Below, in pieces: positions 27,941 to 28,315 of a stretch of 64,000 bases of DNA (positions within the stretch are counted from its first letter, which is position 1; every line of letters begins with the position of its first letter). The position numbers were made by a program, and so were the translations under genes. The stretch lies in NCBI GenBank assembly GCA_964016885.1, contig CAXHJY010000269.1, positions 11,001 through 75,000 of the forward strand, read 5' to 3'. Source of the stretch: Eledone cirrhosa (lineage: Eukaryota). The notes under the pieces are model-generated. The model saw nothing but the letters and a program-made list of their open reading frames with translations. It was not told where the DNA came from and made no database searches.

Positions 27941-28315
27941 ATGTTTACCAGGAATGTTGTTTTCTTATTATTTTTCAGCTTGCCTATTTGGTATGTGGCA
28001 AAAGCAGGTTTAGAAAAGCAATGCAACGAAGAGACCTTGAGAATGGGCAGTACATCAAGTAAATCCTGTGCTAAGAAAGTACACTACTTGGTACGACTTA
28101 TCTGCCACCAGGATAAATATACTAAGAAAATTCAAGGAATTCTATCACGCGCTACTTCTTGTAAAAAGCATACACGTAGAAATCTCAACAATATTGTCAT
28201 CGGTAAACATAAAGCCAAGAATTACTTAGTAAATGAAAATAACTTTTGGAATGGAATAGTCTGCGAGTGTTGCTACAATGCTTGTACGTTGGACGAACTT
28301 CTAGAATATTGCTGA
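27941..28315 (+). CDS. Insulin-like peptide precursor, molluscan (MIP/IRP) type, 124 aa, uninterrupted ORF
   Basis: Hydrophobic signal peptide ending AKA|GLEKQC. B chain C43-x11-C55. A chain GIVCECCYNACTLDELLEYC (CC-x3-C-x8-C). The extra C28/C108 pair is typical of the molluscan fourth disulfide. Dibasic sites KK62-63, KK75-76 and RR79-80. Confidence 0.93.
   Translation: MFTRNVVFLLFFSLPIWYVAKAGLEKQCNEETLRMGSTSSKSCAKKVHYLVRLICHQDKYTKKIQGILSRATSCKKHTRRNLNNIVIGKHKAKNYLVNENNFWNGIVCECCYNACTLDELLEYC

What the first reader, a model, noticed from the sequence alone, without database searches (positions are those of the whole stretch)
27941..28315. Atypical molluscan-type insulin: lost B-chain CG glycine, no A-chain cleavage site, ninth cysteine
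Seen: a complete insulin Cys framework plus the C28/C108 pair. The B-chain motif CG is CA (KSCAKKVHYLVRLIC). There is no KR/RR just before GIVC (YLVNENNFWNGIVC). An odd Cys74 sits in the C region, and the B/C segment is very Lys/Arg-rich while the A chain is acidic. Known: Gly-B8 is highly conserved in insulins, and molluscan insulin-related peptides normally release the A chain at a dibasic site. Inference: processing at KK62-63 and RR79-80 would give a 44-aa N-extended A chain. Alternatively the peptide stays single-chain with a free Cys able to dimerise. This suggests a diverged paralogue, possibly exocrine (salivary/venom or pheromonal, by analogy with cone-snail venom insulins) rather than a metabolic hormone.
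Basis: partly seen in the sequence, partly recalled or inferred. Interest (0 to 1): 0.85.

Follow-up and report, generated by a model that had tools for sequence, protein, structure and literature searches.

The report
Octopus intronless, likely uncut insulin copy
This is an intact, intronless, fast-evolving second copy of the octopus insulin gene, shared with two other octopods; it likely arose from an mRNA copy and likely stays one uncut chain, and its odd cysteine has a likely partner in the other two species but none here.

Summary
The genome holds a normal two-coding-exon molluscan insulin on C4 (CG, RR and KR sites, 92-kb intron). The window gene aligns straight across that intron (54/124 aa identical), so it is an intronless, probably retroposed, paralogue. 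It has relatives in Octopus bimaculoides (XP_014772597.1, reciprocal best hit) and Argonauta hians (clade support 99/97). All three lost Gly-B8, the KR before the A chain and the C-terminal tail, and all carry the C-region cysteine. The other two also carry a tenth cysteine (WCGIVC) where the window has Asn104, so the 'ninth' cysteine is likely half of a clade-specific fifth disulfide. An open frame with 8 cysteines survived neutral drift in at most 2 of 20,000 simulations at divergence 0.2 or more, so the gene has long been under selection, though it evolves about six times faster than its parent. Best reading: a single-chain, IGF-like secreted ligand, likely non-neural and possibly reproductive. 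Venom use is unsupported: a salivary-gland survey of five octopods reported no insulin. Expression, processing and disulfides are untested.

The parts
27941..28315 (+). Single-exon ORF, 124-aa insulin-like precursor, intronless paralogue of the C4 insulin gene
27941..28006 (+). Predicted signal peptide (22 aa; mature chain would start at GLE as aligned to the parent)
   Evidence: hydropathy peak 3.0, alignment; no signal-peptide predictor was run
28007..28111 (+). B domain (aa 23-57) with C28, C43, C55
28070..28072 (+). Ala44 in place of Gly-B8 (parent GGC, here GCT); Ala in O. bimaculoides, Thr in Argonauta
28142..28143 (+). Place of the parent's phase-1 intron (about 91.9 kb, GT..AG), absent here
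   Evidence: protein and DNA alignment run through it; intron length
28160..28162 (+). Cys74 in the C region (parent Gly, GGT to TGT), conserved in both clade members
28232..28237 (+). Asn98-Glu99 in place of the parent's KR site before the A chain
28250..28252 (+). Asn104 (AAT): Cys in O. bimaculoides and Argonauta members, Ser (AGT) in the parent
28253..28312 (+). A-chain core GIVC-x-CC-x3-C-x8-C, the most constrained part (18 of 22 residues of 103-124 identical to parent)
28313..28315 (+). Stop directly after the last Cys; the parent's 13-aa tail is lost, as in both clade members
27923..27925 (+). In-frame ACG, likely relic of the first ATG (O. bimaculoides member starts six codons earlier)
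   Evidence: match extends upstream of the ATG; inference
27861..27962 (+). Leader plus first 7 codons; a close copy of just this piece lies on C2 (L007:1501-1612)
27825..27870 (+). TA run matching a TATA consensus, 30 nt before 27861, and an Inr-like hexamer at 27865: candidate core promoter, weak
   Evidence: chance of such a TATA placement 1.6% per position; consensus motifs recalled

Best explanation
The ORF is an intact, intronless paralogue of the octopod eight-cysteine insulin gene, shared with Octopus bimaculoides and Argonauta hians, which likely arose by retroposition, has likely been kept by selection, and is predicted to be secreted as a single uncut chain. Shown: the parent on C4 has the C-peptide intron and this copy lacks it; the three clade members share loss of Gly-B8, of the KR before the A chain and of the C-terminal tail, and share a new C-region cysteine; two of the three add a cysteine just before GIVC. 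Inferred: (1) an mRNA of the parent was reverse-transcribed and inserted before these lineages split (about 0.8). (2) Selection kept the signal peptide, the 8 core cysteines and the A-chain core while the B and C regions drifted or adapted fast (about 0.85). (3) Without conserved convertase sites the C region stays attached, as in IGFs; in the 10-Cys members a fifth disulfide likely ties the C region to the start of the A chain, while here Cys74 is left unpaired (about 0.65). (4) It likely leaves non-neuroendocrine cells by the constitutive route and acts as a local ligand of the octopus's own insulin-type receptor, with altered affinity after loss of Gly-B8; reproductive tissue is my single best guess for where (about 0.35).
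For: Parent with two coding exons 92 kb apart and alignment through the junction. One contig per DNA run spans the gene. Only this locus and the parent match in the genome by protein, family and DNA search (lower bounds). P0009's best hit in this genome is the window gene, E 2e-34. Clade support 99/97 and 99/100. Of 158 retrieved relatives with an A motif only P0009 and P0013 have Cys before GIV. Pairwise dN/dS to the parent 0.30-0.55, A chain 0.07-0.20, dS 1.0-1.7. Neutral simulation: open frame, 8 Cys and no frameshift in 2 of 20,000 runs at d=0.2 and 0 of 20,000 at d=0.3, 0.5, 0.6. Model of the 10-Cys member shows bridge residues at 34, 77-78 and 108-109, beside C79 and C109; the window model has bridges only at 27-28 and 103-104 and leaves 70-88 under pLDDT 50. 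The O. vulgaris gastric-ganglion MIRP primers match the parent (1-2 mismatches), not this gene (7-8). Precedents: uncut teleost insab products and insulin retrocopies (PMC8051583, passages); gonadulin, a fast-evolving ovarian insulin on the constitutive route (PMC8220825, passages).
Against: No expression data for this gene. The pairwise dN/dS sums two lineages: if half of dS and nearly all of dN fall on the copy, its own ratio is near 0.8-0.9 overall and about 1 or more in B and early C (my arithmetic), so only the A chain, the cysteines and the frame show clear constraint. RR79-80 here and KR83/RK103 in O. bimaculoides could still be cut. Both models are low-confidence (pTM 0.49 and 0.46; pLDDT 53-61 in the C region), the output names no bridge partners and gives no S-S distances, and fold searches were weak (IGF-1 E=8; INS-6 Z 3.9, rmsd 4.0, 46 aligned). 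No poly-A tail or target-site repeat marks the insertion, and I could not check whether the orthologues are intronless. The tree does not date the duplication against the squid/cuttlefish split (44/57; AU p 0.39). The cuttlefish parent gene is itself highest in ovary (PMC9221753, abstract), so a gonadal role would not need this copy.
Confidence: 0.55

Rival explanations
1. The clade was functional, but this species' copy has recently lost constraint and is an early pseudogene: it lost the tenth cysteine and the first ATG and now drifts.
For: Odd cysteine count, which secreted proteins usually avoid (established knowledge); in-frame ACG relic; lies on a 75-kb contig among retroelement relics and microsatellite; a dead copy keeps frame and 8 Cys in 8% of runs at d=0.05.
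Against: No stop, no frameshift, signal peptide and A core intact; end branch 0.66-0.71 changes per site with all 8 Cys kept; Ser to Asn and Ser to Cys are each one base from the parent's AGT, so Asn104 need not be a loss; the C2 copy of the leader hints at germ-line transcription (weak).
Confidence: 0.15
2. The peptide is still cut, at shifted sites (RR79-80 here, KR83 in O. bimaculoides), into a long B chain and an N-extended A chain, and works as a second, specialised two-chain neurohormone; the extra disulfide then links the two pieces.
For: A dibasic pair lies 4-5 residues after the C-region Cys in 2 of 3 members; a cut there would leave that Cys on the B piece and the tenth Cys on the A piece.
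Against: The Argonauta member has no RR or KR anywhere, only KKK; no R-x-x-R furin motif in the window protein; the one neural expression report I could assign belongs to the parent.
Confidence: 0.15
3. It is a salivary venom insulin used on prey, as in cone snails.
For: Duplicate of an endogenous hormone evolving about six times faster than its parent (0.67 against 0.10; 1.04 against 0.18); recruitment of own neuropeptides is the common origin of such toxins (10.64898/2026.02.02.703354, passages).
Against: That preprint surveyed 822 secreted salivary-gland transcripts (over 1000 tpm plus homologues) from five octopods and two decapods with BLASTp and insulin A/B models and listed stanniocalcin, luqin, myosuppressin, tachykinin and neurotensin mimics, no insulin (its supplements not seen; this species may not be among them). 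Two other octopod gland or venom papers hold the word insulin 0 times in the main text. Two recent reviews list no cephalopod venom insulin in the passages seen. Here the C region changes faster than the A chain, the reverse of the mimic pattern described in PMC12962067.
Confidence: 0.08
4. Origin by DNA duplication with later intron loss, or an ancient coleoid paralogue lost or unsampled in squids and cuttlefish; function as in the best explanation.
For: No poly-A or target-site relic; position against decapods unresolved.
Against: Needs copying of a gene with a very long intron (92 kb today) and exact intron removal; at 30 columns where octopod and decapod parents differ the window copy sides with octopods 8 to 1 and P0009 10 to 0, P0013 2 to 2 (some octopod states may be ancestral); no clade member among cuttlefish or other hits.
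Confidence: 0.07

Closest known systems
O. bimaculoides XP_014772597.1 ('ILP-3', molluscan insulin-related peptide 3-like) and A. hians GAB1606112.1 (hypothetical)
   Same: Same clade (99/97); shared Gly-B8 loss, C-region Cys, no KR before the A chain, no tail; 63/123 and 42/119 identical.
   Different: They have a tenth Cys before GIVC; the window has Asn. The O. bimaculoides record is named once in the searched papers, as function unclear (PMC9221753).
Molluscan insulin-related peptide (8-Cys MIP type): the C4 parent, O. sinensis XP_029634273.1, Sepiella SjILP
   Same: Signal peptide, 8-Cys frame, A-chain motif; direct ancestor of the copy.
   Different: Parent has the intron, CG, RR and KR sites and a 13-aa tail, and is about six times more conserved.
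Vertebrate insulin retrogenes (rodent Ins1, pike insa2)
   Same: Retroposed copy of an insulin gene kept beside its parent (PMC8051583, PMC13728926).
   Different: Ins1 stays under strong purifying selection in all domains (PMC13728926); this copy is under 45% identical to its parent and re-engineered.
Teleost insab and bat uncut proinsulins; IGFs
   Same: Duplicate with lost convertase sites, kept signal peptide and cysteines, predicted single chain (PMC8051583).
   Different: Six-Cys frame; I saw no added C-region disulfide described for them.
Insect gonadulin / Dilp8
   Same: Fast-evolving insulin-like peptide with uncertain processing, constitutive secretion proposed (PMC8220825).
   Different: Not an orthologue; ancient lineage linked to LGR-type receptors; ovarian expression shown there, unknown here.
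Cone-snail venom insulins
   Same: Fast-evolving duplicate of an endogenous insulin.
   Different: Venom-gland expression and prey mimicry are not shown here; NCBI's 'con-Ins' labels on the octopus parent look like names passed on by similarity.

Membership tests
Insulin/IGF/relaxin superfamily | PF00049 above cut-off and six-Cys core | tested here: met
   24.1 bits against 23; C43, C55, C110, C111, C115, C124
Insulin/IGF/relaxin superfamily | Three-helix insulin fold | tested here: inconclusive
   B, A1 and A2 helices in both models; best matches INS-6 Z 3.9 and IGF-1 E=8 are weak
Molluscan insulin-related peptide (8-Cys) | A motif CxCCxxxCx8C and B motif Cx9-14Cx11C | tested here: met
   motifs from PMC5996578; Cys positions
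Molluscan insulin-related peptide (8-Cys) | Dibasic sites that release the C peptide | tested here: not met
   parent RQRR and KR absent; KR/RR before GIVC in 30 of 36 rows, in none of the 3 clade members
Molluscan insulin-related peptide (8-Cys) | B-chain Cys-Gly | tested here: not met
   Ala44; Gly in 33 of 36 rows
Molluscan insulin-related peptide (8-Cys) | Neuroendocrine expression and two-chain product | not testable with these tools
   needs RNA and peptidomics
Functional retrogene | Lacks the intron of an intron-bearing parent at another locus | tested here: met
   only one coding intron is available to test; the contig is short and its chromosome unknown
Functional retrogene | Poly-A relic and target-site duplication | tested here: inconclusive
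   none recognised by eye; not expected at dS above 1
Functional retrogene | Intact frame under selection, kept across species | tested here: met
Functional retrogene | Transcribed and translated | not testable with these tools
   only DNA runs could be laid
Processed pseudogene | Disabling stops, frameshifts or lost core cysteines | tested here: not met
   none; the one new stop follows the last Cys and is shared by the clade
Venom insulin (Con-Ins type) | High expression in the venom gland | not testable with these tools
   not testable for this species; the published survey that includes O. bimaculoides reports no insulin
Venom insulin (Con-Ins type) | Mimicry of a prey insulin | tested here: inconclusive
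   nearest relatives are octopod insulins; vertebrate insulins score only E 0.1-0.8; a mollusc-directed ligand is not excluded

The most novel reading that the evidence does not exclude
Octopods turned an insulin retrocopy into a new kind of ligand: one uncut chain whose C peptide is stapled to the A chain by a fifth disulfide, used as a reproductive or secreted signal. This species preserves the half-way stage: the C-region cysteine came first and stands unpaired (possibly as a disulfide-linked dimer), and the partner arose later on the Octopus-Argonauta line, as the codons (AGT to AAT, AGT to TGT) and the gene tree (88-96 support for O. bimaculoides plus Argonauta; the alternative is not rejected, AU p 0.12) allow.
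Probability: 0.2. Interest if true: 0.72.

Novelty: new variant of a known kind. Interest (0 to 1): 0.5.

Why it matters
Octopus insulin signalling is tied to the optic gland, brooding and post-reproductive decline (10.1101/340984, passages), yet the ligands are barely described. This shows that a record treated as one more MIP is a separate octopod lineage with its own architecture: no intron (here), no cleavage site, no Gly-B8, a likely fifth disulfide. It gives a testable natural series (8, 9 and 10 cysteines) for how a disulfide is gained or lost in a hormone and for what Gly-B8 and the C peptide do at an invertebrate receptor. It also warns that 'MIRP-3' expression reports may refer to the parent, and that unspliced paralogues are easy to miss. 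It is a lineage-level variant of a known theme (insulin retrocopies, uncut insulins), not a new class of system.

Tried and rejected
No RNA holder listed for the stretch; X1 and X2 proved to be DNA; this says nothing on expression. Single-sequence protein search found nothing (5 candidates); the relatives came only through the parent's exon and a profile. The exhaustive profile search gave 426 hits at E up to 0.001, of which the best 150 were seen, and no further clade member; P0009 itself was not among the listed representatives, so 50% clustering can hide members. The ESM Atlas gave generic insulin-like clusters only. No copy with ten cysteines elsewhere in this genome (lower bound). Assembly artefact rejected. 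Charge asymmetry rejected as a special trait. A contig joint from 28823 back to 27821 was not taken as a tandem copy: one unbroken contig at flat depth crosses both places. Allelism between the window and the C2 fragment rejected: flanks do not match; no target-site repeat longer than 5 nt around that fragment; read support for the fragment stays unchecked. The complex predictor was not available, so the dimer idea is untested. Disulfide distances could not be measured: no coordinates are returned. No earlier findings of this scan. Literature: ten searches showed no paper describing this clade, its intron loss or its tenth cysteine; the library lacks most subscription journals, and bioRxiv supplements were closed (File S1 of the venom preprint could bear on the venom question).

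Full report
Observation. The ORF at 27941-28315 (+) encodes 124 aa and passes the Pfam Insulin cut-off narrowly. The C28/C108 pair is the ordinary fourth pair of molluscan insulins (PMC5996578 and PMC9221753, passages), and the basic B/C and acidic A regions are shared with the parent gene. Of the ORFs of 100 aa or more in the window this was the only one I recognised as a host gene; the others are microsatellite frames or retroelement relics (7 of them were scanned).

The parent. A protein search of the own genome (3.0 Gb) gave three matches: the window and two pieces on C4. These are two coding exons of a normal insulin gene, split by a phase-1 GT..AG intron of about 91.9 kb, with FCG, RQRR, KR and a 13-aa tail. 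It is 133/147 identical to Octopus sinensis insulin, so the animal is an octopod. The window gene aligns across the splice junction at protein and DNA level (54/124 aa). Two DNA runs of one sample each gave a single contig across the gene. Family, DNA and second protein searches found no further copy (lower bounds).

The clade. A profile search returned 51 proteins, among them O. bimaculoides XP_014772597.1 (P0009) and Argonauta hians GAB1606112.1 (P0013). P0009's best match in this genome is the window gene. The three form one clade (99/97 with 26 rows; 99/100 with 16 rows; rows were chosen from the full-length hits, fragments and near-duplicates left out). They share four derived traits: no Gly-B8 (33 of 36 rows keep it), no KR/RR before the A chain (30 of 36 rows have one; P0009 has RK), a stop right after the last Cys (also in 1 of the other 33 rows), and a Cys in the C region. 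P0009 and P0013 also have Cys before GIVC, the only 2 of 158 relatives with an A motif to do so. The window has Asn there, the parent Ser. So the odd cysteine is most simply half of a clade-specific pair. Whether this species lost the partner or never gained it is open: both AAT and TGT are one step from the parent's AGT, and the gene tree puts the two 10-Cys members together (96/88, 88/81) without rejecting the alternative (AU p 0.12). The one phylogeny paper I read groups Octopodidae with three other benthic families apart from Argonautoidea (PMC5813590, passages), and I did not place this species in a family.

Selection. Against the parent, dS is 1.0-1.7 and dN/dS 0.30-0.55 (Nei-Gojobori, kappa 1-3; bootstrap 0.23-0.73 at kappa 2); A chain 0.07-0.20, B 0.40-0.72, early C 0.68-1.01. 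These ratios pool both lineages; since the parent barely changed, the copy's own ratio outside the A chain is probably near 1. The stronger evidence is survival: a neutrally drifting copy kept frame and 8 Cys in 2 of 20,000 runs at d=0.2 and none at 0.3-0.6, under an assumed indel rate, but in 8% at d=0.05. Long-term function is therefore well supported and a very recent death is not excluded. Between species the copy diverged about six times faster than the parent (0.67 against 0.10, comparing O. bimaculoides and O. sinensis respectively; 1.04 against 0.18 for Argonauta).

Structure. Models are modest (P0009 pLDDT 71, pTM 0.49; window mature chain pLDDT 62, pTM 0.46). Both show B, A1 and A2 helices. 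In P0009, bridge residues appear at 34, 77-78 and 108-109, next to C79 and C109, which fits a fifth disulfide; partners and distances are not given, and confidence there is 53-61. In the window model the region around Cys74 is unresolved. Fold searches gave weak insulin-family hits only.

Processing and site. Where the gene is expressed is unknown. The O. vulgaris gastric-ganglion transcript called MIRP-3 is the parent by its primers (PMC5736919, passages). A 2026 preprint that screened 822 secreted salivary-gland transcripts of five octopods and two decapods with insulin models reports no insulin mimic (10.64898/2026.02.02.703354, passages and section 4; supplements not seen). PMC12607849 and PMC7656900 do not contain the word insulin in the main text. 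The reviews PMC13311285 and PMC12962067 (passages) list only tachykinins for octopus. I therefore rank venom low. A reproductive role rests on analogy (gonadulin, PMC8220825, passages; the recalled tendency of retrogenes to start in germ-line tissue) and is a guess.

A side clue. A 112-nt piece on C2 copies the leader and first seven codons (3 mismatches and one 10-nt insertion) with unrelated flanks, and is followed by short AT-rich repeats and an A-run. Its 5' end falls 30 nt after a TATA-like run in the window (1.6% by chance per position). This would fit a cDNA-derived insert from this gene's transcript and so recent germ-line transcription; a DNA-level patch fits as well, no target-site repeat was found, and read support is unchecked.

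Comparison and verdict. It works like an uncut, IGF-style member of the insulin family and arose like rodent Ins1 or pike insa2; lost processing sites recall teleost insab (PMC8051583, passages; PMC13728926, passages and section 7). It belongs to the insulin superfamily and descends from the 8-Cys molluscan type but fails that type's CG and cleavage features. The O. bimaculoides member is on record and named once as ILP-3 of unclear function (PMC9221753, first part of the text and passages); my ten searches found no description of the clade's architecture. Also read as passages without bearing on the verdict: 10.1101/340984 and PMC6425005.

Noticed in passing
L007:1501-1612 (G000:C2:202600092-202600203): Isolated close copy of this gene's leader and first seven codons in unrelated sequence, followed by short AT-rich repeats and an A-run; possibly a cDNA-derived insert.
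   Followed up: partly
L003 and L002 (G000:C4, about 34074.6-33982.5 kb, minus strand): The parent insulin gene: two coding exons with a 91.9-kb intron; its orthologues carry NCBI names of a cone-snail insulin (con-Ins Im1), which can mislead.
   Followed up: yes
window 36455-64000: A 27.5-kb AT-rich short-unit array running to the contig end, with 11% G and 3% C on the + strand, broken by recurring pieces of a unit also seen at 3006-3824; may be satellite or an assembly expansion.
   Followed up: no
window 5377-7215, 9814-11535, 18000-20400, 27052-27429; L009: Broken reverse-transcriptase and endonuclease relics of non-LTR retroelements around the gene (RVT_1 E 3e-6, Exo_endo_phos_2 E 0.006, both under cut-off); the 18-20 kb stretch is G-rich on one strand.
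   Followed up: partly
window 28333: A/G difference between the two DNA runs of one sample in the 3' flank, likely a heterozygous site; no listed difference inside the ORF.
   Followed up: no
window 29410-29643: First polyadenylation-signal hexamers lie about 1.1 kb after the stop (29410, 29510, 29622, 29638).
   Followed up: no
G000, family search PF00049: Only the parent and this copy rang; other insulin-type genes expected in a mollusc (recalled: Dilp7-like, IGF-like) were not picked up, probably because split exons score low.
   Followed up: no
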